Shown in pieces: positions 1 to 58,805 of a stretch of DNA of 64,000 bases (positions are counted from its first letter, which is position 1; each line of letters starts with the position of its first letter). Source of the stretch: Paraspadella gotoi (Eukaryota > Animalia > Chaetognatha); NCBI GenBank assembly GCA_051294375.1, contig CM119268.1, positions 20,430,148 through 20,494,147 on the forward strand, read 5' to 3'. A model generated the notes under the pieces. It was not told where the DNA came from. It saw nothing but the letters and a program-made list of their open reading frames with translations, and searched no databases. A program made the position numbers and the translations under genes.

Positions 1-150
1 ACCGTGTTACAGGCGGGTTAAGCGCCCCGTCCCTCTTAACTGCTAGACGGCCACCGGGCTAGAACCCCAGACCTTTGGTTGGGAGGCGAATGACTTGCCT
101 CCAGCACCAATAGCCGCTGATGAACGGTTGGTGGATTTTAGTCCAGCATA
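1..150 (-). mobile_element. Partial LTR of family A (tRNA-like module plus 5' part of twister), truncated by window edge
   Basis: Close match to 13257-13407 and 14050-14200; outer end ...gtccagcata. Confidence 0.85.
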
Positions 151-11977: not shown

Positions 11978-13226
11978 TATTAATTAATTAATATTAATTT
12001 TTTTTGATGGTCAAAATTGTTTTCCACTTTGTTTCGCCTCACAATCACAAAACAACAACTTCGATTACAAAATTAATTAATTAATTACAAATAATTAATA
12101 ATTAATTAATTATTTATTAATAATTAGTTAATGCAGCTTGAATTTATATTTAATATAAAAATAAAAAAGCATAATCAAATAGGGAAATAGATTTTTTGTT
12201 TTTTCCATTTTCACTCATTTTAACTCAACGATTCCATCGAAACTTTATTTCCTGTTTAATCACACACTTTCAGACCCACATACAAAATTTGAAGTCAAAT
12301 TATTTCTACTAAGTTTCAATTTTTTTTCTGGTATGCAAACCGAATAAATTCTCAGCTATCATTTAAAAACAGAAATGTTTAGTGTTTTAAAATTGAACCT
12401 TTGCTAGAATGTGGATTCTGTCAAGAATTAAACTGGAAAAGATGTTTAATTTTTCTATTTAGCTTCCGTTTATTTAATTATAAAATAGAATAGAATTAAA
12501 AAGTAGAAAAAATACAAGTTATTTCTCTTTCTTTCTCTCTCTCTCGGTTTAAACTTCGCCAGACTGGTTCTAAAGTAAGAGATTAATTACAAATTTAAGT
12601 TAAAAATCTTATCAGGAGCTTGATAAAGAATACAATCGATCAAACAATGTCGTATCTGCCCACGATCATTAGCGGTAATTAATTAATAAATTAGTTAATT
12701 TGATTTCTTCACTGACCATGACAATGACAATAATGCTGATAACGAGTGATTTGATTGATTGATTGATTAAATAAATAAATTGTGTGATTGAATAATTAAA
12801 TAATAGATAAATAAATTGATTGATTGAATAATTAATTTATTGATTGACTAATTAATTATTGATTAATTAATTGAGTAATTGATTAATTAACAGAGTAATT
12901 ATTTGATTAATTAATACATCTTGCATTTACATTTAATATAAAATAAAAAAGAATAATCAGTTAGTGAAACAGGTTTTTTGTTTTTTCCATTTAAACTCAT
13001 TTCCACTCAGACTATTCCATCGAAACTTGATTTCCAGCTTCATCACACACTTTCCTACCCACATACAAAATTTCAAGTCAATCGCCCCATACACTCGTGA
13101 GTAATTGGCGTTCAAATACTGAAATAGTTTTTTGGCTCTTTTCCACTCTCACGAATCCGTCGAAACTTCATATTGAAGAGACAGTAATTATTGATATGTG
13201 TTAATGACAGAACCGTTCAATATAAG

Positions 13227-13298
13227 CAGTCCCTGAGCTTTGGATCAGGCAGTAACACCGAGTTACAGGCGGGTTAAGCGCCCCATCCCTCTTAACTG
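13227..13298 (-). ncRNA. Twister ribozyme motif, P5-type permutation (family A, 3' LTR)
   Basis: Minus strand: CAGUU aaga GG GAUGG GGCGCU UAA CC C GC cu GUAAC ucggu GUUAC ug CCUG AUCCAAAGCU CAGG GACUG. T1 CCA:UGG, T2 GC:GC, P3/P4/P5 all pair. Predicted cut between 13276 and 13275. Confidence 0.85.
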
Positions 13299-13302
13299 TT
13301 AG

Positions 13303-13374
13303 GCGGCCACCAGGCTAGAACCCTGGACCTTTGGATTGGGAGACAAATGATTTGCCTCCGGCACCAATGGCCGC
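13303..13374 (-). ncRNA. 72-nt tRNA-like (Gly-CCC-like) Pol III module in family A LTR
   Basis: 7-bp acceptor stem GCGGCCA/TGGCCGC, A-box-like TGGTGCCGGAGG, CTCCCAA anticodon-like loop, B-box-like GGTTCTAGCC. The anticodon stem is imperfect, so this is not a functional tRNA. Confidence 0.7.
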
Positions 13375-13649
13375 TGATGAACGGTTGGTGGATTTTAGTC
13401 CACCATACATCCCCCCCTCCCGTAGAGAGAAGTTTGTCGCGTCTCTTCAGTGAATTGTTGGTGGAAAGTGCATCACCAAGTTGAGGCATGTCGCCTGATG
13501 TGTTGTTGGCGGAAAGTGCATCGCCAGGTTGAGGCATGTCGCCTGAAAGTGTTGTTGTTGCTGTTGTGTTCGGATGTTGGGCTCACCAATGAAGAGACAG
13601 TAATTATTGATATGTGTTAATGACAGAACCGTTCAATATAAGCAGTCCC

Positions 13650-14021
13650 GGTAAGTATAAGTATATAAGTATACTCGGTAGGAAGGGTAACGGAGGTGGT
13701 AGGAATTTTTCCGTGGTCGGATGTGAAACTGATGGTCTGTGTACTCGGTAGGAAGGGTAACGGAGGTGGTAGGAATTTTTCCGTGGTCGGATGTGAAACT
13801 GATGGTCTGTGTACTCGGTAGGAAGGGTAACGGAGGTGGTAGGAATTTTTCCGTGGTCGGATGTGAAACTGATGGTCTGTGTACTCGGTAGGAAGGGTAA
13901 CGGAGGTGGTAGGAATTTTTCCGTGGTCGGATGTGAAACTGATGGTCTGTGTACTCGGTAGGAAGGGTAACGGAGGTGGTAGGAATTTTTCTGTGGTCGG
14001 ATGTGAAACTGATGGTCTGTG
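13650..14021. repeat. Insertion of five exact or near-exact 70-bp units plus a (taagta)-like tail, flanked by a GTCCC duplication
   Basis: Units run 13671-14020; GTCCC at 13645-13649 and 14022-14026. Confidence 0.9.
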
Positions 14022-14092
14022 GTCCCTGAGCTTTGGATCAGTCTGTAACACCGAGTTACAGGCGGGTTAAGCGCCCCGTCCCTCTAAACTGC
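14022..14092 (-). ncRNA. Twister motif, family A 5' LTR (P5 3' strand split by the insertion; one T1 mismatch)
   Basis: Same core as 13227-13298, with GACGG in place of GAUGG. Confidence 0.65.
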
Positions 14093-14479
14093 TAGGCGGC
14101 CACCAGGCTAGAACCCTGGACCTTTGGGTTGGGAGACGAATGACTTACTTCCAGCACCAATGGCCGCTGATGAACGGTTGGTGGATTTTAGTCCACCATA
14201 ATATCCAGCTCAATCACACACTTCCCTACCCACTTACATAATTTCATTCCAATCCAACTCTAATTACTCAGTAATTAGAGTTTTTTGCTTAGGTGGGACG
14301 GACGGACGGATGTTCAATGTTCTGACATGATATAAGTGAATGCCCAACAAGATTGAGGGGGCGGACCGACAAAGTGAATTATAGAGTCGGAATCTGCTGA
14401 TGAGTAGATCCGACTAAAATACGAAACAATTATTTGACTGCTTCCAATCGCTTAAGCGTAATTTTCATACTCGTTAAAA

Positions 14480-15330: not shown

Positions 15331-18300
15331 GAGAGAGATAGAGAAAGAGAAACTTTAAAAAATTCAAATAAATGTGTATTTTGGTTTTCTAATTTGAACT
15401 CTTTTCCACTCATACGAATTTATATTCAGCTTTATTACATACTTTCCTACCCACACACAAAATTCCATTTCAATTTATCTATCCAATTTTTAATAAACAT
15501 TATAATTATAAGTAAATTTAAGTAAAAATACTTCAAGTAAATATGACTTTTGTTTTTTCCATTTTAACGCATTTCCACTTGCACGATTCCATCGAAACTT
15601 TATATCCAGCTCAATCACACACTTTCCTACCATGATACAAAATTTCAAGTCAATTACCCTATCCACTCATGAGCAATTAGCGTTCAAATAGTGAAATAGA
15701 TTTTTTTGTTTTTTCCATTTAAACCATTTTCCACTCGTACGATTCCATCGAAACTTCATATCCATCTCAATCACGCAGTTTCCTACCCACACACAAAATT
15801 TCATACCAATCCATCCATCCAATCACGAGTAATGGGAGTTTTTTTGCTAAGGGGGGACGGACGGACGGACTAACCTTATCCCTAACCGAAACCCTAAACA
15901 ATTAATCCATCGTTCAAATTATCGTTCAAATTATCGTCGTCGTATTTGTCGATCCTGACTCTAAGTCATCCAGCCAGAGAGAGCGAGAGAGATTCGCTGC
16001 TCCTTCATACGGCAAAGGGGCATCGATGTTTGATAAGGCCCAATATTTTGGGGTGGGACCGACGGACCGACAAAGTGAATTATAGAGTCGGAATCTGCTG
16101 TTAAGCAGATCCGACTAAAAGCAGTAACAGTAACGGTATAAATAACAGCATACTGATCACAAAAATATAACCAAAACCACTAATATCAAATTATAAAACG
16201 CTACTAAAATGTTAAAAGCTACTTCATAAAAGACTGTAAAACTAAAAGTCGTTTAACAAAATCTCGATTTCAAAATTTTTTACTCAGTTTTTGCTCGCAC
16301 GTCTTTCCTGCGGAGCAACTCTATATGTTTTAGTCAATCTCGTGACGATATGCCCGTTTGACGATATGCCCGTTTGACTAGTCCAATTTTGATGCACCTC
16401 AATCATATTGTGGATAAGGCGCTAAGTGGGCTGAAGATGACTATCCGTAACTTCTATAACCCCTTTTAGTAGCCATGAAACGGGTCCTGGGCTTGGAACC
16501 AGGTTTGAGGGTTTGCCACACCCCCAAGGCGGCTTACGGCCGTCCTCACGCTTCCCGCAGGCGAGGTACCGGGTTGGGATTGAACCTGGTACCTAGTGGT
16601 CATGAGTTGATGGCTTTACTCAATGAGCCACCGGGTCAGGACTGAAGGTGTCATGCTTATAGGCAGGGTGAACCTAGGCAATGCCCGACTACATGCCCCC
16701 CAGATTGTAACCCACCCTGCACTGCTTCCAGTGGAGGGAGGGGAGCAATCTTCAGCACGTCCATGGGCCTGGAATCAGAAGGTTGGAATACGCTCGACAG
16801 GATGGGCTCACCAGTGTGGAAAAGGCACTAAGTGGGCTGAAGATGACTATCCGTAACTTCTATAACCCCCTTTAGTAGCCATGAAACGGGTCCTGGGCTT
16901 GGAACCAGGCTTGAGGGTTTGCCGCACCCCCAAGGCGGCTTACGGCCGTCCTCACGCTTCCCGCAGGGTAGGTACCGGGTTGGGATTGAACCCGGTACCT
17001 AGTGGTCATGAGCTGATGGCTTTACTCAATGAGCCAACAGGTCAGGACTGAAGGTGTCATGCTTATAGGCGGGGTGAACCTAGGCAATGCCCGACTACAA
17101 TATAACAGTAATCATCAGGAAACATATGATAAATAATTATTTTCGCAAAAAATAAAAGATTATTAGTTGTATAAAAATGAGGATTTAATTAAGGCTAGAA
17201 AACAAATCATCAGTTCAATAGTAGTTAATACGTCAAAAAAACATTATGAAATTGGTACAACCAATATAAAAATTATCCATTCATTTAATAAATAAGCTAT
17301 CTTGCCCCTGACTTTGGACAGGCTTTGGTGGTTTAAGGCCTCCATCACTCTTACAAGATAATTACACAGCAGGTCCCTGCAAGCTTTCAATCAAGACTCT
17401 CTGACAGTCCCGTTTATTCACTCCCAGAGTACTTGGCTTCCCTATGTTTCAGGCCAAAACAGGCCATTTTATCTCCCTCCCTCGATTATGTTTCAGGCCA
17501 AAAACATGCCATTTTTACCTCGTACCCTATAATTTCACTCAGGCCAAAAACAGGCCAACATAATGATAGTCCCGTCCACCTTCGCCGAAGACGTCAAAGA
17601 AATCTGCCGCCGCAACGCTGCTCCGCTGCCGCTGCTGTACAATAGCAGCAGAGGTGAGACAGGGGCGCCGACTCTGACCGAGAACTCGAACATCAGGTGA
17701 GTTAACTGGAAAAATTTTGGGTGAGTAAGGACTGTAAATGTTGATTGTCCTCATTGGTGAAATGAGAATTAATATCATAAACAAATAAAAAACAAAAAAA
17801 TGATTATACTGTGGTGGTATATTCACACCACCTCACGTCCACGATCGTTCAGCCAATACCATTGGCTCAGAGGGGGAACACACCATCACAGGCGTTGTGT
17901 TCCATCCACAGTCCTAACGATTTCCCTCTGCGTTGACAAAGCGAGGGTCGGAAGCCCCCAAAGCCAACAGTGAGATTGCCCCTTACCAATGGGCATCACA
18001 GGCAACCCGGCTGTTGCCATAATACCATGAAGAAAAAAAATTTGTCCAGCTGTTTTTCAGCATTTTAATGTAAAAATAAAAAAATAAAATTTAAATATCA
18101 AGAAACTTTAGCCTTTTGTAATTCATATGAGCTGTATCTCATTTATGTATAATAAAAATACAAGAGTTCGATGCAAAAAACAATGAATTGCCGAAAAAAT
18201 ACTTCTTTGTTTTTTTATCGTTTTCATATCTATAAGTTTTATTTATACTAATTTTTTTCAGTTTTATGTCAAATGGTTATTGCATCATCTTTATTAGGAT

Positions 18301-19496
18301 AGATTCAAGGATAAATATTAATTCATATGTAAAATAAAAAGTGGTATTAAAAATATATTGATGCTGTAACTGCTCCAAAATATTTTTTTATATTATAAAG
18401 TATCAATAAAAGTTATAAGGCTCCTTTTTGTAAATAAAATTATCATTTTTATTTACCTCTGGATGTATTATCAAAACCAAATATCTAACAAGTCCAAAAA
18501 AAAATCAAAGATTTGTTGAAGTGAAAGATAATATATTATCACATTATACAGCAACAACTCGAGCCTAGTTTACTTTATAAAGGATCAATCTTTTTTACTG
18601 TTTGCCAAAGATAATTTTTTTTACAAAATCTGATAAAAAATATTATGAAATTGGTATAACCAATATAAAAATTATCCATTCAATTAATAAATAAGCTATC
18701 TTGCCCCTGATTTTGGACAGGCTTTGGTGGTTTAAGGCCTCCATCACTCTTACAAGATAATGACATGCAAGCTTTCAATTAAGAATCTCTTACAGTCTAG
18801 TTTATTCACTCCTAAAGTTCCTGACTTCCTTATCGATGAAGTGGTATAATATTTCAAAGTAAGTTTGAATTGTATGAAAAGACTACTCCTTAAGTAATAG
18901 ATCGGGGAATACTATATTATACTCCGCCCAGCATAAAATACAAGGAGCTGAATTTTATGAAATTGATACAACCAAAATAAAAATTATCTATTCATTTAAT
19001 AAATAAGTTATCTTACCCCTGACTTTGGTGGTTTAAGGCCTCCATCACTCTTACAAGATAATGACATAGCAGGTCCCTGTAAAAAAACTCTTAGAGATAT
19101 AATATTAATGATAAATATAATATCTTGATCAAAAAAAGGTAAAAACAGTTAGAGACAACCTCTTTTGGAAGTATTCGTATGCATTTAAATAATTTTGTGC
19201 TATTAAGAAATAATCTTCTTATTCAGTCTTAGGGAATTATATTATATATTAAAACTCATTTATTGGCCAAAAAATACATTTAACAATGAAATTAACCGAC
19301 TTTTCCAAACCGCGACAATTTTTTTTGCCATCATGGTAGATAACGCTAAATAAAGACAAAACGAGACTATGGAAAAATTACTAATTAAATTTTTAAATAA
19401 ATGCAAGTTATTCGTAAGTTAGTTTCAAAATCCTCAAATTCCAAAACGACAAATTATAGTAAATAAACAAGACTTAAGAAAAAAGAAACGAAAACA

Positions 19497-20262: not shown

Positions 20263-22587
20263 GCGAAGGAGATTTCCCGGGTCAGAATAATACATTACCT
20301 AATGTCTTATTAGTGTTTTGTTTATTACGTTTTTGTTTTAGAACCGACCTACCTTCCGTTATGACTTATGAATTCGGCGTTCCAATTGGTCAACGGTCTT
20401 GCCCCGTCAATGCTGATTGGTCCGATTTTGTGACCTTTTACGTCGGCTGCAGCTACTCGTTTGAAGCGGCTCTGATCGCGGGAAGAATTCCCATCAGAAA
20501 CATGGAGAGAAAAAAAGATGTGGCTGCGTATAAGGTGATGAAAAAGGAATGAGTGAGTGAAGAGAGTGAGTCAGTGAGCCAGTCAGTGAGTCCGTCAGTC
20601 AGTGAGTTAGTGAGTGATAGACAGAAAGAGAGAAGAAGGAGAGAGAAGGAGAGAAGGAGAGAGAGAGAAAGACAGAAGGAGAAAGAAGGAGAGAGAAAAG
20701 GGAGACAGAGAGAGAGAAAAGGACAGGAGAGAAAAGGAGAGACACAGAGAAAGAGAGAGTGGCGGAGAGAGATATAACAACATCTAGGAACCATTTGATC
20801 AATATGTAATTTTTGAAATAGTCAACAAACAAGACCTCTTTAGCCTTAACTTACCTTTAGCCCTAACTTACCTCACCCGTAATCAACTGCTCCTCCCTTT
20901 TCAGACTTCCGTCTTCCTCTTCACGCCCCCCCATCTCCCCCCCGTCCCCATGGTGGTCTCCCTGCGCCCCCTCCCCCCTTCCCTCCTCGAGACGTGCTTT
21001 TCCATCACGGCGCCGATGGCCGACGCTCACGGGGCGCCGGTTCACGTCGGCGCCCCTGGCGTTATCGGCATCGAAGACGTGACGGCGCCGGATTTCGGTT
21101 TGACGCCGGATTTCGAAGACGGCGACGTTCCGGTCTTTTGGGCTTGTGGAATAACTGGGAGACTTTTGATGACGGCGTTGAGTATGTCTGTTGGTTGTTG
21201 GCTTTGTTGTTGTTTGGAATGACTAAAATGTCTGTCTGTCCGTCGGTCTGTCTGTCGATCATTTTGTTCATCCGATTTACTATTTACAAAGTAAGACATT
21301 TCAGTTGGTACATTTATCTGATTCTTCATGAAAATTAAAGTTACAGTTTCTGAAAAAAAAAAATTTTCATTGTCAAAAAATAAACTGATCAGCAGACGCA
21401 GCCCCTGAGAAAAAAAAATAAATAAAAAACCCGATGTTGCGATAGCAAAATGATAACATGCACGAATGCGATGCCTTATTTTACGAGTTCAATCCTAATT
21501 CAATTTTTTTTTAATAAAAACGCAGAGAGAGAGAAAGAGAGAGAGAAAAAAAAAGAAAGAAATCAAAAGGCAGCAGCAGAAGCAGCTTGAGAAAAGAGAG
21601 AAAAAGAGAGAGCCCTGCAGAGCTGAAAATTTATATACAGCTTCTCATCATCGATGTCCTTAAAATTGAGTCAGGACAGTTATTAAATATGTTTTGTTTA
21701 CGTTTTATCAAAACAAACAAATTTTCTCTCTTTTATTTTTATATTTCTTTCTCTCTCTCTTTTCTCTTTTAATTATATGTCTCTCTCCCTCTCTCTTTTC
21801 CCTAGTCACTGATTCATAGGAAAAAAAAACCGAGTCTGCAGGGGCTTATTCTTTTTCTCTCTTTTCTCCTGCTGCTTCTGCTGCTGCCTTTTGAGTCTGT
21901 AGCTGGCTCTGCAGGGGCTCTCTATTTTCTCCTGCTGCTTCTGCTGCTGCCTTTTTATTTCTTTCTTTTTTTCTCTCTCTCTCTCTGCGTTTTTATGAAA
22001 AAAAAAATTGAATTAGGATTGAACTCATAAAATTAAGCATCACATTCGTGCATGTTATCATTTTGCTATTGCAACATCATGTTTTTTTTTCCCTTTTTTT
22101 CTCAGGGGCTGCGTCTGCTGATCAGTTTATTTTTTGACAATGAAATTTTTTTTCTTTTTTTCCTTTTTTTTTCAGAAACTGTAATTTTAATTTTCCTCGG
22201 TACTTTATTATTTTTTTTAATTGACAATCGCAAAATAGAATTTTTCTTTCTGTTTATAAATTAATTTTCTTTTCTCAAATTCTCAAATAGTATCAAAATT
22301 TGTCGTCAATCCAGATTTTTCTTATGCGATTGCGACGATCCTTATGCTTTTAAGATTTTTATTGCGAGTTGTTGTTATTACACTTGACATTGTCGTTATC
22401 ATTAATTTAACTGATATTTTAATTTCATGTAACTTTTTCTTCAGAATCTCCCATCGCTTTCACCGATGCCTTGGATAATTTGTTTTTGTGCGACGTTTCC
22501 TCCGAGCAGCAGCAAGAGGACGGGCAACAGCAGCAGCAGCCGCCGACGCCACAGCTCCACCCGCGCGTCTTCCGCATCTACAGCAAT
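14480..22587 (+). CDS. DGLUCY: D-glutamate cyclase-like gene, copy 2 (exons 1-5; later exons displaced to ~27.85-28.85 kb by local scrambling)
   Basis: Exons 14480-14642, 17543-17696, 20342-20534, 20905-21181 and 22445-~22587 join in frame: TTTSGLAKGQKQANIMIVP, CRRNAAPLPLL, FVTFYVGCSYSFEAAL, AHGAPVHVG, VPVFWACGITG. Confidence 0.88.
14933..16120 (-). mobile_element. Full-length DINE-1/HINE-like element with internal 18-bp and ATCA tandem repeats
   Basis: 5' hairpin gtcggatctgct..agcagattccgac at 16087-16116; 3' subterminal repeat plus gtttgagcaaac stem at 14938-14965; 18-bp repeat 14990-15270; (ATCA)n 15270-15330. Confidence 0.7.
16480..16558 (-). ncRNA. Twister ribozyme motif, P5-type (family B, 3' LTR)
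   Basis: Same core as 16886-16964, with one terminal P3 mismatch; predicted cut 16536/16535. Confidence 0.8.
16566..16637 (-). ncRNA. tRNA-like (Met/Lys-like) Pol III module in family B LTR
   Basis: A-box-like TGGCTCATTGAG, CTCATGA anticodon-like loop, B-box GGTTCAATCC; TATAA ~20-25 nt upstream. Confidence 0.65.
16886..16964 (-). ncRNA. Twister ribozyme motif, P5-type (family B, 5' LTR)
   Basis: Minus strand: GCGGG aagc GU GAGGA CGGCCG UAA GC C GC CUUGGGGGU gcggcaa ACCCUCAAG CCUG GUUCCAAGCC CAGG a CCCGU. T1 UCC:GGA, T2 GC:GC, 9-bp P3. Predicted cut 16942/16941. Confidence 0.85.
17240..19080 (+). repeat. Three dispersed copies of a ~130-200-bp repeat (17240-17440, 18640-18830, 18955-19080)
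   Basis: Shared attatgaaattggtacaacc...gactttgg..gtggtttaaggcctccatcactcttacaagataat; degenerate copy near 39320-39440. Confidence 0.75.
17810..18021. mobile_element. Candidate solo LTR of a third family (or a small MITE)
   Basis: 212-bp GC-richer island, TGTGG...CCATA ends, ATAC duplication at 17806-17809 and 18022-18025, terminal hairpins. Confidence 0.6.
21332..22194. repeat. Foldback element with ~290-bp inverted arms in DGLUCY copy 2 intron 4
   Basis: 21332-21625 is the reverse complement of ~21895-22194; also present at 54230-55115. Confidence 0.8.
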
Positions 22588-23040: not shown

Positions 23041-23481
23041 GATGCGCCACATATCATTATAAAAAGGCCGTTATTTTTAATTGTGAAAAAACGTATTACA
23101 TAATATTTTTATTGACATTGGACATATATTAAAATATAAATTATATTAATGTTCGCTCCATTGTTTTTTAACTTCTTCAATTTCATTAGCAAGACTAAGA
23201 CTACCCCACCTCTTTTTTGACCAAGTAAGGGTGGGCGCGGCATCTTGATCCCACCTCTCCTCGCGTATCTCTCGTGAAAGATCGGAGGAGACCAAAGATC
23301 TGAAGGCGATGATGAAGGACCATGCATCGACGGAGTCAGGTCTGTTTATAAAAGGAGGGTTAGATTTTTGGTCACAAAAGAATAAAAAGTTCGGATTAAA
23401 AAAGGTGAGCAAAATCAATTTTTAATTCCAATCTCTAACCTATTCTCGAACCCTAAAACTACATATGTTAAATAAGTTATG

Positions 23482-24377
23482 TGTAGTGCGGGCAATTGCC
23501 TAAGTTCACCGGCTATAGGACTGAAACCTTCAATCTGTGACCCGGTGGCTCATTGAGTAAGACTCATGACACATGTACGGGTTCAATCCAACGCCGGTCC
23601 TACCCTACGGAAGCGTGAGGACGGCCGTAAGCCGCCTTGGGGAGTGGCAAACCCTCAAGCCTGGTTCCAAGCGCCGAAACCCGTTCCATAGGCTGCTAGA
23701 GGGGTTAAAGAAGTTGCGGATAGTACTCTTCAGTAAGGCGTAGTAAAATTATCTAAATTTACTTAATTAAAATTCTAAAAGTGAGGAAACGACATATATT
23801 ATATTAATTGAAATTCATATAATAAAAAAATTTATAATAAAATTTTACAAATTTACGCAGTAGGCCATATTTATACTATACTAAACCAATAATGTTAAAA
23901 TTTCAGAACAGTTTTTTTCTAAGATTTTTTTGCAGATTGGATTTGTCATAAAAAGTTGACAAAAAGAAATATAACTCTATTTTTGAAAAATCCTTCATTA
24001 AGTTGGTCAAAAATTAAAAAAAGCTATATTTTTAAGCTGAAAATTAACTTTTATATATTTAAATTATAGTTTTTTTAATTTTTACGACCACTTAATGAAA
24101 GAGTTTAAAAAATGATTTTATATTTCCTTTATCAACTTTTGACGAGGATTCAAAATCTGCAATCAAAATTAAGAAAAACCTATTTTGAAATTTTTCGTTA
24201 TTATAAGGATAGTACTCATTATAAATATACCTACTGCAAAAATTAAAAAACATAAAATTATTTTTTTTTACCAATTAATGTTCACTGATGGTATGTTGTT
24301 CATAATTGACTTTTAGAATTTTCGTATGTAACTTTCACTACGCTTACTCTTCAGCCCCACTTAGCGCCTTATTCACA
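23482..24377 (+). mobile_element. Family B solo LTR (inverted duplicate of 28303-28580) interrupted by a MITE; twister motif at 23607-23684
   Basis: tgtagt...; gaagcgtgaggacggccgtaagccgcc...ctggttccaagc; ...ttattcaca. Confidence 0.8.
23734..24346. mobile_element. Non-autonomous DNA transposon (hAT-like MITE), 613 bp
   Basis: Imperfect TIRs taaggcgtagtaaaatta / taactttcactacgctta; 8-bp TSD CTCTTCAG at 23726-23733 and 24347-24354. Confidence 0.85.
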
Positions 24378-27854: not shown

Positions 27855-28851
27855 GAAGACTTGGCTCGTCGCATCGATTTCTTGGCCATCTTTATATTCG
27901 TTGATTTCCTGAAGAGGACGGGAAAATCGATCCAAATTTTCGGGAACAACAAAAGATCAAATTTGATCTTGAATCAGATCGGTATCGAAGCGAAGAACCA
28001 AGAATATACGGATGGGAATAGGTATCCATTTTTGGTTATGTTAAAACTTTTGTTAATTTAAATAAATTGACGAAAAATTAGATCCAAACATAATGACAAA
28101 CACCTTAAAATGATAAAACTTTTTTATTGATTTGCTTTTTCAGTCTCGAAACTTTGAAGGTCAAGATCGGAATGGAGCAAAAGGCTGACGAACACGAGAG
28201 AGTAATAAGTAGGTTTTATTTAATTAATATTTATAATTATTATCTAAAAAGCTTAATACGGCAATAAATTGTGGTACCGGCTAGCTACCGTCCTAAAGTC
28301 ATTGTGAATAAGGCGCTAAGTGGGGCTGAAGAGTACTATCCGCAACTTCTTTAACCCCCTCTAGCAGCCATGGAACGGGTTCTGGGCTTGGAACCAGGCT
28401 TGAGGGTTTGCCACTCCCCCAAGGCGGCTTACGGCCGTCCTCACGCTTCCCGTAGGGTAGGTACCGGGTTGGGATTGAACCCGGTACCCAGTGGTCATGA
28501 GCTTTACTCAATGAGCCACCGGGTCACAATTGAAGGTGTCATGCTTATAGCCGGGTGAACTTAGGCAATGCCCGACTACACATAACTTATTAACTATGTA
28601 GTTTTTAGGGTTCGGAATAAGGTTAGAGATTGGATTAAAAATTAGGATTTTGCTCACCTCTTTTTTAAATCCGACTTTTTATCTTTTGTGACCAAAATCT
28701 ACCTCCTTTTATAACAGACCTGACTCCGTCCGATGCGATTGTCCTCATCATCGCCTTCAGATCTTTGATCTCCTCCGATCTTCACGAGAGATACGCGAGG
28801 AGAGGGTTGGGATTCAAGATGGCCGCGCCCAGCCTTACTGGTCAAAAAGAG
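27855..28851 (+). CDS. DGLUCY: Displaced 3' exons of DGLUCY copy 2
   Basis: ~27855-28021 (FVDFLKRTGKSIQIFGNNK), ~28144-28202 and ~28718-28851 (DAIVLIIAFRSLISSDLHERYARRG) are homologous to copy 1 exons 7-9. Confidence 0.65.
28303..28580 (-). mobile_element. Family B solo LTR with intact twister motif (28375-28453)
   Basis: TG..CA ends, flanked by CAT on both sides; P5 here is ACGGG/CCCGU, so the G.U pair of the other copies becomes A-U. Confidence 0.88.
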
Positions 28852-29013
28852 GTGGGTAGGTCTTAGTCTGCTAATGAATTGAAGGAAGTTAAAAAAACAA
28901 TGGAGGACATTATATAATTATATTTTAATATATTGTCCAATGTCAATGAAAAATATTATGTAAACGTTTTTTCACAATTAAAAATAACGGCTTTTATAAT
29001 GGAATAGTGTGCG

Positions 29014-30112: not shown

Positions 30113-31330
30113 TTTTTTAGTCGATCTGCTTATCAGCAGATCCCGACTCTATAACTCACCTTTTATAAACTACTTTTTCGGTCCGTCGGTCCGCCCCCTC
30201 AAATATTGTCGGGCACACCACTTATAATCATGTCAGAAATCGAATTAAATGATAATTATCAAAAAAATGATGTCCGTTGCGTTCCGTCTGTCTGTCCGTC
30301 GTCCTATCCGTGCCGTCGCGTCCGTGCCGTCCGTTGGCCGTCCGCACCTTAGGCAAAAAACACCAATTAACTCGTGGATTGGACTTTGCGATGATTTACA
30401 AATGAAATTTTGTGTTGTGGATAGGTAAGTGTGTTGATTGAGCTGGATAATTAAGTTTGATGGAAATCGTCCGAGTGGAAATGAGTTTAAATGGAAAAAA
30501 CAAAAAAAATTATTCACTATTTGAAGCACCAATTGCTCATGAGTGGATGGGGCTTGATTGACCTGGAATTTTGTATGTTGGGTAGGAAAGTGTGTGATTG
30601 AAGCGGAAATCAAGTTTCGATGGAATAGTTTGAGTGGAAATGAGTTTAAATGGAAAAAAACAAAAAACCCTGTTTTAACTAATTGATTATGCTTCTTTTT
30701 CCTTTATATTAAATGTATCTGCAGGATGTATTAATAAATCAAATAATGTAATCAAGTTAATTAATCAATTATAAAATAAATTAATTCAATAATTTAATTA
30801 AATTAGTCAATCAATCCGTCATCCGTCCCATCTTAGCAAAAAAGCTCCAATAACTCGTTGATTGGCCTGGTTGGATTGGAATTATTTTGTTGTGTGGGTA
30901 GGAAAAGTGTGTGATAAAGCTGGATATAAAAATTTCGATGGAAATCGTGTGAGTGGAAATTAGTTTAAAATGGAAAAAAACATAAGTCGAATTTACTAAA
31001 ATCTTTACTTATTTTAACCAATAAATAACTCCTATTAATCATAATTGGATGGATAGATTGAGTTGAAAATTTTGTGTGTGGGTAGGAAACGTATGACGAA
31101 GCTTGATATAAAGTTTCAGTGGAAACAGTACCCGCAGTGGAGATGAAGTTTTAAATGAAAAAATATGAGTCCATTTACTTAATCTTTTAATTTATTTTAA
31201 CCCATGATAGATTGAGAAATGAAATTTTTTGTGAGCCGGTAGGAAAGTGAGTGAAGAAGCTTAGATATAAAGTTTTGACGGAATTGGCAAGTTGAAAAAA
31301 TTATGCAAGTTGAAAAAAATGATGCCCAAG
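30113..31330 (+). mobile_element. DINE-1/HINE-like element (5' end and repeated core), low-quality sequence
   Basis: ttttttagtcgatctgcttatcagcagatcccgactctataa followed by GTCY tract and core repeats; 3'-end fragments at ~32985-33026 and 63620-63665. Confidence 0.65.
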
Positions 31331-41876: not shown

Positions 41877-42878
41877 TATGGTGGACTAAATCCCCAACCG
41901 TCTCAAGGCTAGCGGGCCCATTGGGTTGCGGAGGCAAGTCAATGATTATCGCCTCGCGCAACCGCAAAGGGTCCGGGGGTTCTAGCCCCGGTGGATCGTC
42001 TGGCAGTTCAAGCGTAGGGACAGGGGTTGGCATAACCCGGCTGTAAACATGGTGTTACAGCCTTATCGAAGCACGGAATGCTTAATATTGAACGTTCTGT
42101 CATTAACACTTATCAATAATTACTAATCTCTTCATTGGTGAGCCCGACCTTCTGACACAACAGCAACAACAACGACGAGAGAGTTTTCCAGGAATACACG
42201 AGGTACGATACCGCATGGAACGGAAGGTGGACTACACAGGCCGGATATAGGTTGACTACAGAGCCACGGATTGGGCGACTGAGATCGGACTGCGTTCTAA
42301 GGGGGAATCGCATGTATTAACTATAGAAAGTAGGAGCGAGTGGGGAAATAGGTAACGTCCGCGAGACAGCGATTCATTGATCCTCATGCGCCCCGGACCA
42401 GCAAGCTAGGATAGGACTGTGGCGGTAGTTAAGGGCGAGACAAGAAAGTTAGTTCGAGAGAGAGAGAAGAGAGAAGAAGAGAATAAGAAAAGAGAAGAGA
42501 AGCTAAGGAGGGGCCGGACGAAGAAAGACATTTTGTTTTATGTGATGGGGAATTAATCTTTGGAACGAGAAAGCTCTCTCGAAGGTGTCAGTGCTTCAGA
42601 GATCGTATATTACAATCTCACAAGAAAACAGTTATCGTTCCGACAACAGATGTGCACCGAGTAACGAGAAGTGGCATGAACCGTAAGCTTTGTCACCGAG
42701 GATTTTACCGTCCCGCCATCTCGCGTACCCAGAGTTAGGTGCTGAAATGTAAGGATCAAAACGACGAGGCAAGATTGTGTAGCCGATATCAGAACTGGGG
42801 CCGGAGCCCCGGCCGTGAAAGGGGTTTCAGGGCTTAAGAGTGGAAGACGGAAGGAGCGGCAGCGCAGACCCGGAATGG
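41877..42878 (+). mobile_element. Family A-type LTR (41877-42134) plus PBS plus ~740 bp of different internal sequence; possibly a longer or autonomous element
   Basis: Starts TATGGTGGACTAAA, ends ctcttca, then TGGTGAGCCCGAC. Shares cacaacagcaacaacaac with the TRIM interior and then diverges. tRNA-like and twister parts are degraded. Confidence 0.75.
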
Positions 42879-49319: not shown

Positions 49320-52300
49320 GGTGTCTATGCTGATGGCAGGGTGGAAACCTAGGCCAAGTGGCCCGACTACATGGCCCCCCAGATTGTAACCCACCCTTGA
49401 CACTGCTTTCCAGTGGAGGGAGGGGAGCAATCTTCAGCACGTCCATGGGCCTGGAATCAGAAGGTTTGGAATACGCTCGACAGGATGGCTCACCCAGTGT
49501 TGGAAAGGCACTAAGGGGCCTGAAGATGACTATTCCGTAAACTTCTATAACCCCCTTAGTAGCCATGTGAAAACAGGTCCTGGGCTTGGGGAACCAGGCC
49601 TGAGGGTTTTTGCCGGCACCCCAAGCGGCCTTACGGCCGTCCTCACGCTTCCCGCAGGGTAGGGTACCGGGTTGCGGATTGAACCCGGTACCTAGTGGTC
49701 ATAGCTGATGGCTTTACTCAATGAGCCAACAGCGTCAGGACTGAAGGTGTCATGGCTTATAGCGGCGGTGAACCTTAGGCAATGCCCGACTACAATATAA
49801 CAGTAATTTCATCAGGAAACATATGATAAATAATTTATTTTCGCAAAAAAATAAAAATTATTAGTTGTTATAAAAATGAGGATTTTAATTAATGCTAGAA
49901 AAAAACACATAATCCAATCAAGTTCAATAGTAGTTAATACGTCAAAAAAACATTATGAAAATGGTACAACCAATATAAAAAATATCCATTCATTTAATAA
50001 ATAAAGCTATCTTTGCCCCTGACTTTGGAACAGGCTTGGTGGTTTTAAGGCCTCCATCACTCTTACAGATAATTACACAGCAGGTCCCTGCAAGGCTTTT
50101 CAATCAAGACTCTCTGACAGTCCCGTTTATTCACTTTCCCAGAGCGTACTTGGCTTCCCTATGTGTTTCAGGCCAAAACAGGCCATTTTATCTTCCCTCC
50201 CTCGATTATGTTTTCAGGCCAAAAACATTGCCATTTTTACCTCGTACCCTATAATTTCACTCAGGCCAAAAACAGGCCAAACAATAATGATAGTCCCGTC
50301 CACCTTCGCCGAAGACGTCAAAGAAATCCGCCGCCGCAACGCGCTCCGCTGCCGCGATGCCTGACAATAGCGCAGAGGTGAGACAGGGGGCGCCGACTCT
50401 GACCGAGAAACTTCGAACATCAGGTGAGTTAACGGAAAAATTTTGGTGAAGTAGCGACTGGAATTGATTGGTCCTCATTGGTTGAAATGAGAATTAATAT
50501 CTATAAACAAATTAAAAAAACAAAAAATGATTATACTGTGGTGGTATATTTCACAACCACCTCACGTCCACGATCGTTCAGCCAAATTACCATTGGCCTC
50601 AGAGGGGGAAACACACCATCACAGCGGTTGTGTTCCATCCACCATCCTAACGATTTCCCTCTGCGCTTGGGACAAAGGGAGCGGTCGGAAAGCCCCAAAA
50701 GCCAACAGTGAGATGCCCCTTACCAAATGGCAATCACAGGCAACCCGGCTGTTGCCATAAATACATGAAGAAAAAAAAATTTGTCCAGCTGTTTCAGCAT
50801 TTTAAATGTAAAAATTAAAAAATAAATTATAAATATCAAGAAACTTTAGCCTTTTGTAATTTCATATGGGCTGATCTCATTTATGCTATAATAAAAAATA
50901 CAAGAGTTCGATGCAAAAAACAAATGAAATTGCCGAGAAAAAATACTTCTTTGTTTTTTTATCGTTTTTCATTATCTATAAGTTTTTATTTATTTACTAA
51001 TTTTTTTCAGGTTTATTGTCAAATGGTTATTGCATCCATCTTTATTAGGATAGATTCCAAAGGTAAATATTAATTCATATGTAAAATAAAAAGTCGGTAT
51101 TCAAATATATTGATGCTGTAACTGCTCCAAAATATTTTTTTATATTATAAAGTATCAATAAAAGTTATAAGGCTCCTTTTGTAAATAAAATTATCATTTT
51201 TTTATTTACCTCTGGATGTATTATCAAAACCAAATATCTAACAAGATCCAAAAAAAAATCAAAAAGATTTGTTGAAGTGAAAGATAATATTATTATCACA
51301 TTATTTACAGCAACAAACTCGAGCCTAGTTTTACTTTATTAAAGGATCAATCTTTTTTTTACTGTTTGCCAAAGATAATTTTTTTACAAAAACTTCTGAT
51401 AAAAAATATTATTGAAATTGGTATAACCATAAAAAATTATCCATTCAATTAAAAAAAGCATATCTTGCCCCTTGATTTTGCGACAGGGCTTTGGTGGTTT
51501 AAGGCCTCCATCACTGTCTTACAAGATAATGACATGCAAGGCTTTCAATTAAGGAATCTCTTACAGTCTAGTTTATTCACTCCTAAAGTTCCTGACTTCC
51601 TTATCGATGAAGTGGTTCTATTAATATTTCAAAGTAAGTTTTGAATTGTATGAAAGACTACTCCTTAAGGAATAGATCGGGGAATACTATATTATACTCC
51701 GCCCAGCGATAAAATACAAGGAGCTGGCAATTTTATGAAATTTGATTACAACCAAAATTAAAAATTATCTATTCATTAATAAATAAAGTTTTCTTACCCC
51801 TGACTTTTGGTGGTTTAAGGCCTCCATCACTCTTACAAGATAATAGACATAAGCAGGTCCCGTAAAAAAACTCTTAGAGGATATAATATTAATGATAATA
51901 TAATATCTTGATCAAAAAAAGGTAAAAACAGTTAGAGACAACCTTCTTTTGGAAGTATCGTTATGCATTTAAATAATTTTGTGCTATTAAGAAATAATCT
52001 TCTTATCAGTCTTAGGGAAATTATATTTATATATTAAAACTTCATTTATTTGGCAAAAATACAATTTTAACAACTGGCACAAAATCTAACATCACACTTT
52101 TCCAAACCGCGACAATTTTTTTTCCATTCATGGTAGATAACGCTAAATAAGACCCAAAACGAGACTATGAAAAATTACTAATTAATTTTAACATAAATGC
52201 AAGTTCATTCGTAAGTTAGTTTCAAAATCCTCTAAAATTCAGACTAAAACCGATCCACTTGCATAATGTGAGTGTATTCACAAGGCAAGACTTTAAACAG

Positions 52301-56540: not shown

Positions 56541-58805
56541 CTTTGACGATTTGAAGATGGAAACTTTTATATTCTAATGGCATTTCTAATCTCTGGCTTT
56601 TTAAAGGTTTAAGTACTTGTATTGCTAATAATTGAAAAATTTTGTGATTTTAAAATTCTAAATTTGGGGAATTTTGACCTCAGAAGACTTGGCTCGTCGC
56701 ATCGATTTCTTGCCATCTTTAATTCGTTGAATTTCCTGAAGAGGACGGGAAAATCAGATCCAAATTTCTCCGGGGAACAAACAAAAGATCAAAATTTTTG
56801 ATCTTGAATTTCAGATCGGTGATCGAAGCGAAGAACCAAGAATATACGGATGGGAATAGTATCCATTTTTGGTTTATGTTAAAACTTTTGTTAATTTAAA
56901 TAAATTGACGAAAAAATAGATCCAAACATAATGACAAAAACCTAAAATGATAAAAACTTTTTATTTTTGGGAAATTTGCTTTTTCAGTCTCGAAACTTTG
57001 AAGGTCAAAGATCGGAATGGAGCAAAAGGCTTGACGAACACGAGAGAGTAATAAGTAGGTTTATTTAATTAATATTTATAATATTATCTAAAAGAGCTTA
57101 AATTACGGCAATAAATTGTGTTCATCTCACCTGGAACAGGTTACCGGCTAAGCTACCGTCCTAAAAGTTCATTGTGAATAAGGCGCTACAGTGGGGGCTG
57201 AAGAGTTACTATCCGCAACTTCTTAAACCCCTCTAGCAGGCCATTGGAACTCGGGTCGGCCTTGTAAACCAGGCTTGAGGGTTTGCCCACTCCCCCAAAG
57301 GCGGCTTACGCGCCTCCTCCACGCTTCCCGGGTAGACGCGGCTAGGTACCGGGTCGATTGGGATTTGAACCCGTACCAGTGGTCATGAGCTTTACTCAAT
57401 GAGCCACCGGTCACAATTGAGGTGTCATGCTTATAGCCGGGTGGAACTTAGGCAATGCGCCGACTACACATAACTTATAACTATGTAGTTTTAAGGGTTC
57501 GGGAATAAGGTTTAGAGATTGGATTAAAAATTAGGATTTTTGCTCACCTCTTTTTTTAAAAATCCGACTTTTTATCTTTTTGTTGACCAAAATCTTACCT
57601 TCCTTTTTATAACAGGACCTGACTCGTCCGATGCGATTGTCCTCATCATCGCCTTCAGATCTTTGATCTCCTCCGATCTTCCGAGGAGATACGCGAGGAG
57701 AGGGGTTGGGATTCAGATGCCGCGCCCAGCCTTACTGGCTCAAAAAGAGGTGGGTAGGTCTTAGTCTGGCTAATGAATTGAAGGAAGTTAAAAAAACAAT
57801 GGAGGACATTATATAATTATATTTTAATATATTGTTCCAATGTCAATGAAAAAATATTATGTAAACGTTTTTTCACAATTAAAAATAACGGCTTTTATAA
57901 GTAGGAATAGTCGTGCCGCAACTCTCTTCTCTCTCCTCTCTCCTCTCTCTCTCTCTCTCTCTTCTCTCTCTCGTCTCCTTTCTCTCTCTCTCTCCTCTCT
58001 TCTCATCCTCTCCAACAAAATCTAGCAGTAGACGCGAGAAAACCCTTTGCATCTTCAAGTTTTCACCAGGACTTTAAATTGTCCCAATTCAAGCGACTTC
58101 TTCCCTTTCGTGACGAATCGCGGATGTTTGTCAAGCAGCGCGGACAAATCTAGTTTCGAGAGAGATTTAATTTTTAAAAAGCTTTTATCTTTGGGAAGAA
58201 AGTCTTTTTACGATCGTGAATTTTGATGGGTGTGATTTCGTAATTTCGTTGATTTTGATAGATAAGGCCATTTCTCTTCACGTGAAAAGCCGATGAGAGA
58301 GTGTTGAGGATTTAATGTCTTTGGAGCCCGACAAAGTCCTTAGGTTTCTACCGCTGTTGACGTCCGAGCAGTTAAGTTGTAAGGGAGCTTCCTGACAGCC
58401 TGAAGCAAGTGCTGCCGCTATGCCCCCTAGGCCTTGCTGCTCTCCCGTATTGAACCCTTTATCCAATTTCATAACAATACTAATCTCCTGTCATAACTAT
58501 GTTACGTTTCTCCTGCGGCTGGAATTTTAGAAAGTTTATTTTTGAAAGGAACTTTGCTGTGTTATATAGTGATGGGGGGCAGGGCTGGGATGCGGCCAGG
58601 GGCGTAAGTAGTGGGGCGGAAAGGTTAGGTAGTTAAATGGATTCGGGCGGTGAGGGAAAAGCGGGACCGAGAAGGACTCGAGTCAAAGTTCTTTGGAAAA
58701 TCGTTTTTATAACTTAGTTCCCTAAAACCAACGCCAGTTTTAAGCCTTGTTTGCCAAACACGAGGCTTTAGACCTGACGAGGCAAAGCGAAAATTAAAGA
58801 ATGAT
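49320..58805 (+). other. Indel-rich duplicate of 16645-29825: DGLUCY copy 2 exons 2-9 in correct order, family B element 49320-49794, solo LTR 57173-57468
   Basis: Colinear identity including introns and inserted elements; differences are mostly 1-2-bp indels typical of unpolished long reads. Confidence 0.85.

What the first reader, a model, noticed from the sequence alone, without database searches (positions are those of the whole stretch)
13174..14200. Second, sequence-distinct family (A) with the same architecture and a compensatory twister pseudoknot
Seen: 234-bp LTRs with no overall similarity to family B, yet the same order. A 72-nt tRNA-Gly-like cloverleaf remnant lies 4 nt upstream of a P5-type twister. 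T1 is CCA:UGG here versus UCC:GGA in B, the loop-closing pair is A-U versus G-C, and P3 and P5 differ in sequence but still pair. This natural covariation argues that the fold is selected. Predicted monomer is 416 nt (LTR-to-LTR spacing without the insertion). The sense strand of that unit has no T4 run, consistent with Pol III read-through. Inference: this is a class of elements, not a one-off capture.
Basis: partly seen in the sequence, partly recalled or inferred. Interest (0 to 1): 0.9.

Follow-up and report, generated by a model that had tools for sequence, protein, structure and literature searches.

The report
Twister ribozyme in animal mini-retrotransposon LTRs
A small, gene-less, highly repeated jumping element, likely of an invertebrate animal, carries in each terminal repeat a tRNA-shaped unit followed by a twister-type RNA fold that is predicted to cut itself, which would make it an animal counterpart of the plant "retrozymes" built with a different ribozyme; cutting and RNA circles are untested.

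Summary
The element is real. It is a 650-bp non-coding LTR element (234-bp LTRs, primer site, purine tract, 4-bp target duplication) with many independent insertions. Each LTR holds a 72-nt tRNA-shaped unit followed by a P5-permuted twister fold. That fold recurs with paired changes in family B and in a third repeat (5 strict descriptor hits against 0.28 per shuffle). Rfam does not detect the family A copies. New here: P1 is a self-complementary hexamer in all three families, hinting at cutting as a dimer. Also, two published gall-wasp Helenus LTRs show, by eye, a hammerhead behind their tRNA-like unit, with a near-identical primer site. Best reading: a Helenus-type TRIM that works like an LTR retrozyme; Pol III use, cleavage and circles are inferred. 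I found no such element in print. This scan noted palindromic P5 twisters before, in Penelope-type elements of other genomes, but not in LTRs.

The parts
14201..14204 (-). Target-site duplication, upstream copy (ATAT)
   Evidence: Sequence; host repeat reads through the empty site
14022..14200 (-). 5' LTR, first 179 nt; 11 differences from the 3' LTR
14096..14167 (-). tRNA-shaped unit of the 5' LTR
   Evidence: z -3.0, 0 of 200 shuffles fold as well
14022..14093 (-). Twister fold of the 5' LTR, damaged (T1 mismatch, P5 3' strand interrupted); predicted cut 14069|14068
   Evidence: Found only by the relaxed descriptor
13650..14021 (-). Later 372-nt insertion: five 70-nt units and a short T/A/C-rich tail, with a 5-bp duplication of LTR sequence
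   Evidence: no other copy in the window
13590..13649 (-). 5' LTR, last 60 nt, identical to the 3' LTR end
13578..13588 (-). Primer-binding site, identical in family B; one mismatch in ten to the site labelled tRNA-Trp in Kojima Fig. S2
13408..13589 (-). Internal region, 182 nt, non-coding, with a 48-nt duplication at 13455-13557
13410..13421 (-). Polypurine tract, 2 nt before the 3' LTR
   Evidence: Sequence
13174..13407 (-). 3' LTR, 234 bp, TA...CA ends
   Evidence: ends confirmed by loose ends in three runs
13303..13374 (-). 72-nt tRNA-shaped unit: 7-bp acceptor stem, 5-bp T stem, GGTTC; A box and anticodon stem degenerate
   Evidence: not found by ARAGORN or Rfam
13226..13300 (-). P5-permuted twister fold with P3; predicted cut 13276|13275
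   Evidence: Strict descriptor hit; pair counts
13277..13282 (-). Six-nucleotide self-complementary segment in place of the P1 hairpin
   Evidence: no variant at 10% or more
13170..13173 (-). Target-site duplication, downstream copy (ATAT)
1..150 (-). Second family A insertion, cut by the window edge; CGG in T1
   Evidence: flank unrelated
41877..42173 (+). Third family A insertion: noisy LTR, primer site and 39 nt of internal region
16409..17099 (-). Family B element: same order, same primer site, ATAT duplication, perfect B box, two intact twister folds
   Evidence: Rfam Twister-P5 17.9 and 16.9 bits
17296..17362 (-). Third twister fold (repeat C), no P3, no tRNA unit or LTR seen
   Evidence: Rfam Twister-P5 25.8 bits, gathering score 37.6; strict descriptor

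Best explanation
Family A is a miniature LTR retrotransposon whose LTRs hold a tRNA-shaped unit and a twister fold, and it likely propagates like a plant LTR retrozyme: a transcript likely made by RNA polymerase III is predicted to cut itself once in each LTR, and the released 416-nt unit would be closed into a circle and copied by a helper LTR retrotransposon. Shown: LTRs, primer site, purine tract, 4-bp duplication, many insertions, the fold and its paired changes across three families. Inferred, in order: (1) transcription starts at the tRNA-like unit (LTR position 34), so both twisters are complete in one transcript; (2) cleavage at U|A after LTR position 132 in both LTRs; (3) the unit has no terminal redundancy, so it needs circularisation, by a host ligase as proposed for retrozymes; (4) a tRNA (probably Trp) primes reverse transcription more than once round the circle, rebuilding two LTRs; (5) a Gypsy-type integrase inserts it. 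The self-complementary P1 may pair between the two LTR copies, so that two-LTR transcripts cut and solo-LTR transcripts do not (about 45% on its own).
For: Descriptor: 5 strict hits against 0.275 per shuffle. 12 of 20 named pairs change on both sides across 6 copies of 3 families; 0 of 500 column shuffles reach this and slid controls give 0-4. The family majority restores T1 and P3. A and B share nothing but order, twister core and primer site. P1 is self-complementary in 3 of 3 families with both GC and CG centres; self-duplex -8.3 to -10.7 against hairpin +4.1 to +5.6 kcal/mol. Plant retrozymes have a ribozyme in each LTR, 4-bp duplications, and accumulate as circles (PMC4918200, PMC7761336 passages). 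Schistosome SINE-like repeats join a Pol III promoter to a hammerhead (PMC6765202 passage). Two wasp Helenus LTRs have tRNA-like unit then hammerhead, and are the only consensuses with the Trp-type primer site (by eye). Natural twisters tolerate P1 and P2 defects (PMC11662667 passages).
Against: No cleavage or RNA data. Rfam misses the A fold and scores B and C below the gathering cut-off. The structure was read from these same sequences, and six rows are three lineages, so one search is not a probability. The isolated A twister folds no better than shuffles without its pseudoknots (z -1.1 and -0.05) and has a competing hairpin. Family A promoter boxes are poor: no B-box hit with one mismatch allowed in the window copies, and the A-box hit is matched by two chance hits. 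One third of the dimer argument is expected anyway: 14% of hexamers with a paired outer base are self-complementary, and P1 is reported dispensable. The 5' twister of this copy is damaged. No helper element was found in the window.
Confidence: 0.55

Rival explanations
1. Ordinary Helenus replication from an uncut linear RNA; the twister came in with a captured piece of a Penelope-type or SINE-like element and is slow, gated or dead.
For: Most published Helenus LTRs show no ribozyme, so none is needed (by eye). Repeat C holds the same twister variant with no LTR or tRNA unit and is the best match to the A twister (27 nt, 78%, E 0.016), so a donor may live in this genome. A cut in both LTRs removes the redundancy that normal strand transfer needs.
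Against: Pairing is kept through many changes in two otherwise unrelated LTR families; a passenger should decay like the tRNA unit. A second ribozyme class sits at the same place in wasp Helenus.
Confidence: 0.22
2. The twister stands in for a Pol III terminator: the useful template is the RNA cut only in the 3' LTR, which keeps about 99 nt of terminal redundancy and needs no circle.
For: Many animal Helenus LTRs have a T4-T6 run right after the B box; families A and B and the two hammerhead-bearing wasp LTRs do not (by eye).
Against: The 5' twister is the same sequence and is made first. Fish Helenus LTRs also lack the T run and show no ribozyme.
Confidence: 0.12
3. Retrozyme-like cycle fed by read-through or Pol II transcription; the tRNA-shaped unit is a relic or a processing signal, not a promoter.
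For: In A the acceptor and T stems are intact while the boxes are poor. Read-through is proposed for retrozymes (PMC7761336 passage).
Against: Family B keeps a perfect B box and a good A box but no cloverleaf, so the boxes, not the shape, are what both families share. About half to three quarters of A depth carries a letter at 13312 that brings the B box to one mismatch.
Confidence: 0.08
4. The twister likeness is chance.
For: No Rfam hit for A; the descriptor was written after seeing the sequences.
Against: 5 hits against 0.275, all in repeats and all with a 6-nt P1 although 2-30 nt was allowed; the family majority repairs the breaks; 0 of 126 pattern matches in prokaryotic and viral collections complete the fold.
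Confidence: 0.03

Closest known systems
Helenus (TRIMp3), Kojima 2024, PMC10886601 (main text parts 1-4 of 6; supplement parts 1 and 5-9 of 11 read, the rest by term search)
   Same: Short non-coding LTR element, tRNA-like unit with GGTTC in the LTR, primer site, purine tract, 4-bp duplication in animals, length within 311-1263 bp.
   Different: The paper has no occurrence of 'twister' or 'self-cleav' and names a ribozyme only in one reference title. In most consensuses the tRNA-like unit lies near the LTR end; here 129 nt follow it. No consensus has this primer site or these L4 motifs in an LTR.
Helenus-2_SyJa and Helenus-2_SyUm (gall wasps Synergus; Data S1 of PMC10886601)
   Same: By eye: tRNA-like unit, then a ribozyme fold, no T4 in the LTR, Trp-type primer site differing at one of ten letters from families A and B.
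   Different: Type III hammerhead instead of twister; not annotated as such; internal part much longer and with T4 runs.
Plant LTR retrozymes, Cervera et al. 2016, PMC4918200; review PMC7761336 (passages)
   Same: Ribozyme in each LTR, non-coding centre, primer site, purine tract, 4-bp duplication, solo LTRs.
   Different: Type III hammerhead, tRNA-Met primer, plants, 600-1000-nt circles shown; no tRNA-like promoter in the passages read.
Animal non-LTR retrozymes and schistosome Pol III hammerhead repeats (PMC7229834, PMC6765202, bioRxiv 10.64898/2026.07.22.740005; passages)
   Same: Animal, small unit, ribozyme; some cut as dimers; the schistosome repeats have a Pol III promoter that ends up at the 3' end of the cut unit.
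   Different: Type I hammerhead, tandem arrays, stated to lack LTRs, primer site and purine tract.
Twister variants at the 5' end of Perere-3 (RTE), Liu et al. 2021, PMC8501958 (abstract and passages)
   Same: Twister in an animal retroelement with a reduced P1.
   Different: Non-LTR autonomous element, P1-open form, one cut at the 5' end.
Type-P5 twister, Rfam RF02684
   Same: Order of strands, general base and acid positions, both pseudoknots, L4.
   Different: P1 is a 6-nt palindrome, P2 is three pairs with a bulge, P3 is present; scores below the gathering cut-off or no hit.

Membership tests
Helenus (TRIMp3) | Two LTRs with primer site and purine tract, short, non-coding | tested here: met
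   650 bp without the later insert; the only ORFs of 120 aa or more over it run through the tandem insert
Helenus (TRIMp3) | tRNA-like sequence in the LTR | tested here: met
   Acceptor and T stems with GTTC, 0 of 2000 shuffles; by shape only, as ARAGORN and Rfam give no hit
Helenus (TRIMp3) | Conserved A box (TRGCY..YGG) and B box (GGTTC) | tested here: inconclusive
   GGTTC present; full B box has two mismatches in the window copies; A box weak in A, good in B
Helenus (TRIMp3) | 4-bp target duplication in animals | tested here: met
   ATAT in A and in B; empty-site match
Helenus (TRIMp3) | Pol III transcription; Gypsy helper sharing the primer site | not testable with these tools
   No genome held; no raw RNA reads offered
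LTR retrozyme | Self-cleaving ribozyme motif in each LTR | tested here: met
   Twister fold in both LTRs of A (one damaged) and of B; activity untested
LTR retrozyme | The ribozyme is a type III hammerhead; tRNA-Met primer; plant host | tested here: not met
   No hammerhead hit; primer site is Trp-like. It works like one by inference but is not filed as one
LTR retrozyme | Abundant unit-length linear and circular RNA | not testable with these tools
   Only contigs; a circle's junction equals the LTR sequence
Type-P5 twister | Core: G-A, UAA cut site, 3-bp and 2-bp pseudoknots, P2, P4, L4, open P5 | tested here: met
   (descriptor from my recall of the twister consensus, consistent with the Rfam consensus printed)
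Type-P5 twister | Rfam RF02684 gathering score 37.6 | tested here: not met
   A no hit; B 17.9 and 16.9; C 25.8 bits
Type-P5 twister | P1 closed as a hairpin | tested here: not met
   Six nucleotides only; hairpin unfavourable, self-duplex favourable
Type-P5 twister | Self-cleavage at U|A | not testable with these tools
   Bench assay needed
Non-LTR retrozyme or Penelope pseudo-LTR | Tandem units without primer site, purine tract or short fixed duplication | tested here: not met
   All three LTR hallmarks present; fixed ends in many insertions

The most novel reading that the evidence does not exclude
A cross-phylum class of Trp-primed, Pol III-driven animal LTR retrozymes in which the ribozyme is an exchangeable part (twister here, type III hammerhead in gall wasps), and in which this twister is a natural two-copy enzyme: the palindromic P1 pairs between the two LTRs, so only complete elements release a circle.
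Probability: 0.3. Interest if true: 0.88.

Novelty: new variant of a known kind. Interest (0 to 1): 0.72.

Why it matters
The papers read state that animal retrozymes lack LTRs, primer site and purine tract, and define LTR retrozymes by a plant type III hammerhead. An animal LTR element with a twister in each LTR breaks both limits and, with the wasp hammerhead cases, suggests that self-cleavage and not the ribozyme class is what is selected. It would give twisters a second role in mobile elements, offer a 416-nt system to test whether LTR machinery copies circular RNA and how Pol III-driven TRIMs define their RNA ends, and possibly give the first natural twister that cuts as a dimer.

Tried and rejected
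Whole genome: none held, so no copy count, age profile, R-scape alignment or helper search. Rfam: no tRNA or twister hit for A. First regular-expression scan missed all sites through a matching fault and was replaced. Relatives outside: 0 of 56 matches (5 viral, 51 metagenome) and 0 of 70 matches (15 viral, 55 prokaryotic genomes) complete the fold; these collections are poor in animal DNA, so this is no test of spread. RNA evidence: X9 is only guessed to be RNA and its internal-to-LTR depth ratio (about 0.1) is like that of DNA run X5, not like a unit-length RNA, though contig depth is a poor measure; X10 has one contig with 76 nt of LTR end running into flank, which says nothing about processing or habitat. 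Read support for families B and C was not obtained. No-T4 rejected as evidence. CCA:UGG and the T-stem A-U/G-C polymorphism (13324/13312) rejected as proof of selection, since all four changes are CpG-type transitions; window CpG o/e is 1.0, so CpG decay is itself not proven. Circular monomer folding: z -2.9 for A, -1.3 for B, not decisive. Several window 'copies' of B share flanks and are redundant assembly, not insertions. A text search for the primer motif returned 43 papers; the 20 listed are unrelated by title. Pseudo-LTR reading rejected (membership test).

Full report
Setting. The window is microsatellite-rich eukaryotic DNA with one recognisable exon (D-glutamate cyclase, E 1.3e-26). 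An invertebrate animal host is my inference; the runs that hold the element name it only as organism A. No genome is held. The window is partly redundant: several repeats recur with shared flanks and indel noise, so window copy counts need care.

Anatomy. On the minus strand: ATAT, 5' LTR (14200-14022 and 13649-13590), one spacer base, an 11-nt primer site (13588-13578), a 182-nt centre, a 12-nt purine tract ending 2 nt before the 3' LTR (13407-13174, 234 bp), ATAT. A later 372-nt insert with a 5-bp duplication splits the 5' LTR. Without it the element is 650 bp and the repeat unit 416 nt. The LTRs differ at 11 of 234 positions. The joined flanks match other copies of a host repeat across the junction (79% over 238 columns), so this is a true insertion. 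Two more A insertions with unrelated flanks lie at 1-150 and 41877-42173. Laying four runs on 13140-13589 placed 11,678, 2,242, 807 and 1 contigs; many leave the element exactly at 13174 and 13407 into unrelated flanks, and the insert-free joint from LTR end to primer site appears in three runs. The family is large and its ends are fixed.

tRNA-shaped unit. LTR positions 34-105 form a 7-bp acceptor stem and a 5-bp T stem with GTTC; 0 of 2000 dinucleotide-shuffled LTRs do; folding z is -3.5 and -3.0. D and anticodon arms are degenerate, ARAGORN and Rfam are silent, and 'Gly' rests on the loop triplet alone. The B box has two mismatches in the window copies and one in the 53-78% of depth with the other letter at 13312. 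Family B has a perfect B box and a fair A box but no cloverleaf, which favours a promoter role over a shape role for the two families together.

Twister fold. A descriptor for the P5-permuted core (written from my recall of the consensus and after seeing the sequence; P1 linker free from 2 to 30 nt) gave 5 strict sites: the A 3' LTR, three B LTRs and repeat C, against a mean of 0.275 in 40 shuffles. With one T1 mismatch allowed the A 5' LTR joins, along with four AT-rich chance sites (shuffle mean 2.1). Rfam Twister-P5 scores C at 25.8 bits, B at 17.9 and 16.9, and misses A; the cut-off is 37.6. On six copies, 12 of 20 named pairs change on both sides, 90% of cells pair, 0 of 500 shuffles reach the covariation score, and slid controls fall to 19-56% paired. 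P5 scores 63% there because B is offset by one base and the A 5' copy is interrupted. The rows are three lineages and the structure came from them, so this is strong pattern evidence, not a p-value. All three families share two departures from the Rfam consensus: a 3-bp P2 with one bulged base, and a P1 of six nucleotides.

CCA:UGG is the state of the 3' LTR only; the 5' LTR has a C.A mismatch. In runs X1, X5 and X9 the majority is CCG:CGG (79-96% and 86-99.5%), and the P3 break at 13251 is repaired in 99%. The real covariation is between families. Within the twister, one search lists no other variant at 10% or more except two positions in the P3 loop and window-private letters at 13251 and 13299; the family is young, so this is weak.

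P1. The six nucleotides are self-complementary in all three families, with a CG centre in A and a GC centre in B and C. A one-pair hairpin costs +4.1 to +5.6 kcal/mol; a duplex of two copies gains -8.3 to -10.7. Given a paired outer base, 14% of hexamers are self-complementary, and the families may share ancestry. P1 is reported dispensable (PMC11662667 passages). Dimer cutting is known for hammerheads with a weak helix III (PMC7229834, PMC7761336 passages). I put the dimer reading at about 45%. I noted the palindromes before seeing that earlier notes of this scan describe the same variant in Naiad Penelope-like tails of other genomes; those notes are unchecked leads. They suggest a source for repeat C and for the LTR twisters. 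Naiads are reported to lack canonical hammerheads (PMC8557442 passages, no occurrence of 'twister').

Terminator argument. The A unit has no T4, but neither do 41% of base-shuffled units; B has one T4 at the end of its 5' LTR. No weight.

Known relatives. The element meets the structural definition of Helenus (PMC10886601). That paper never mentions a twister or self-cleavage. Term searches of its supplement found none of six twister loop motifs in a twister context and no exact match to this primer site; line breaks can hide motifs, and fungal parts 2-4 were not read. Reading the animal consensuses (parts 5-9) I saw no twister, but two gall-wasp LTRs, Helenus-2_SyJa and Helenus-2_SyUm, show after the B box a full type III hammerhead: both core segments, a GUC cut triplet, stems of 7, 4 and 6 pairs, and 12 nt of complementarity between loops 1 and 2 (by eye, not computed). 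Of 5 hits for the core word these are the only two in such a context. They are also the only two consensuses with the primer site that Fig. S2 assigns to tRNA-Trp, which differs from that of A and B at one of ten letters. Plant LTR retrozymes share the layout but use a type III hammerhead and tRNA-Met; animal retrozymes are described as lacking LTR, primer site and purine tract. A 2020 review mentions type III hammerhead elements in insects as work in preparation, so the wasp case may be known outside this library.

Novelty search. Ten searches of the open library listed no paper on a twister in LTRs, on an animal LTR retrozyme or on a dimeric twister; of the listed papers I searched passages in ten, and saw the rest as listings only. 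Roth 2014, Lunse 2017 and the schistosome primary paper were not read. Subscription journals, Repbase notes and bioRxiv supplements were out of reach and could hold a prior description. Look-ups of this scan's notes found no LTR element with a ribozyme and no look-alike sequence.

Mechanism. Because the tRNA-like unit lies upstream of the twister, a transcript starting there holds a complete ribozyme in both LTRs. Two cuts free a 416-nt unit with no terminal redundancy, the promoter now near its 3' end, as described for schistosome repeats. A circle solves the redundancy problem: priming at the primer site and more than one round of copying rebuild both LTRs, as proposed for plant retrozymes. 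Every step after the DNA anatomy is inferred. My odds: fold real and selected 0.87; cuts in vivo 0.7; whole cycle 0.55. This genomic copy is probably dead at its 5' ribozyme.

Verdict. Observation confirmed with corrections; interpretation partly supported. A new variant joining two known kinds. Interest 0.72.

Noticed in passing
PMC10886601 Data S1, Helenus-2_SyJa-LTR and Helenus-2_SyUm-LTR: Unannotated type III hammerhead with a 12-nt loop-loop complementarity right after the tRNA-like unit; the only consensuses with a Trp-type primer site. Read by eye.
   Followed up: partly
window 17236-17445 minus; damaged copies at 18635-18833, 18955-19082, 51401-51604, 51733-51861: Repeat C: a third twister of the same variant, without P3, tRNA unit or LTR hallmarks; may be the tail of a Penelope-type element. 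Family B is inserted about 135 nt downstream of it.
   Followed up: partly
window 13650-14021: Five 70-nt units (99% alike) with a short T/A/C-rich tail, inserted into the 5' twister with a 5-bp duplication; origin unknown, no other copy in the window.
   Followed up: partly
window 13386-13405 and 14179-14198: A 7-bp hairpin at the very start of the family A LTR; the LTR begins TA rather than TG.
   Followed up: no
window 13324 and 13312; 13306: T-stem pair is A-U or G-C at similar shares in three runs (41/53, 41/59, 75/78%), suggesting two subfamilies; both changes are CpG-type.
   Followed up: partly
window 16647-17500 and 49320-50221; 28301-28880, 23180-23733, 57171-57770; exon at about 7850, 20950, 53860: The same loci recur with indel noise and shared flanks: uncollapsed long-read assembly, so several repeat copies are not independent.
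   Followed up: yes
window 20788-21219: Exon of a D-glutamate cyclase gene (PF07286), present three times.
   Followed up: partly
window 13000-13173 and 14201-14400; copies near 913-1374, 15572-15869, 30133-30959: Family A sits inside another dispersed repeat with many copies in the window; not classified.
   Followed up: no
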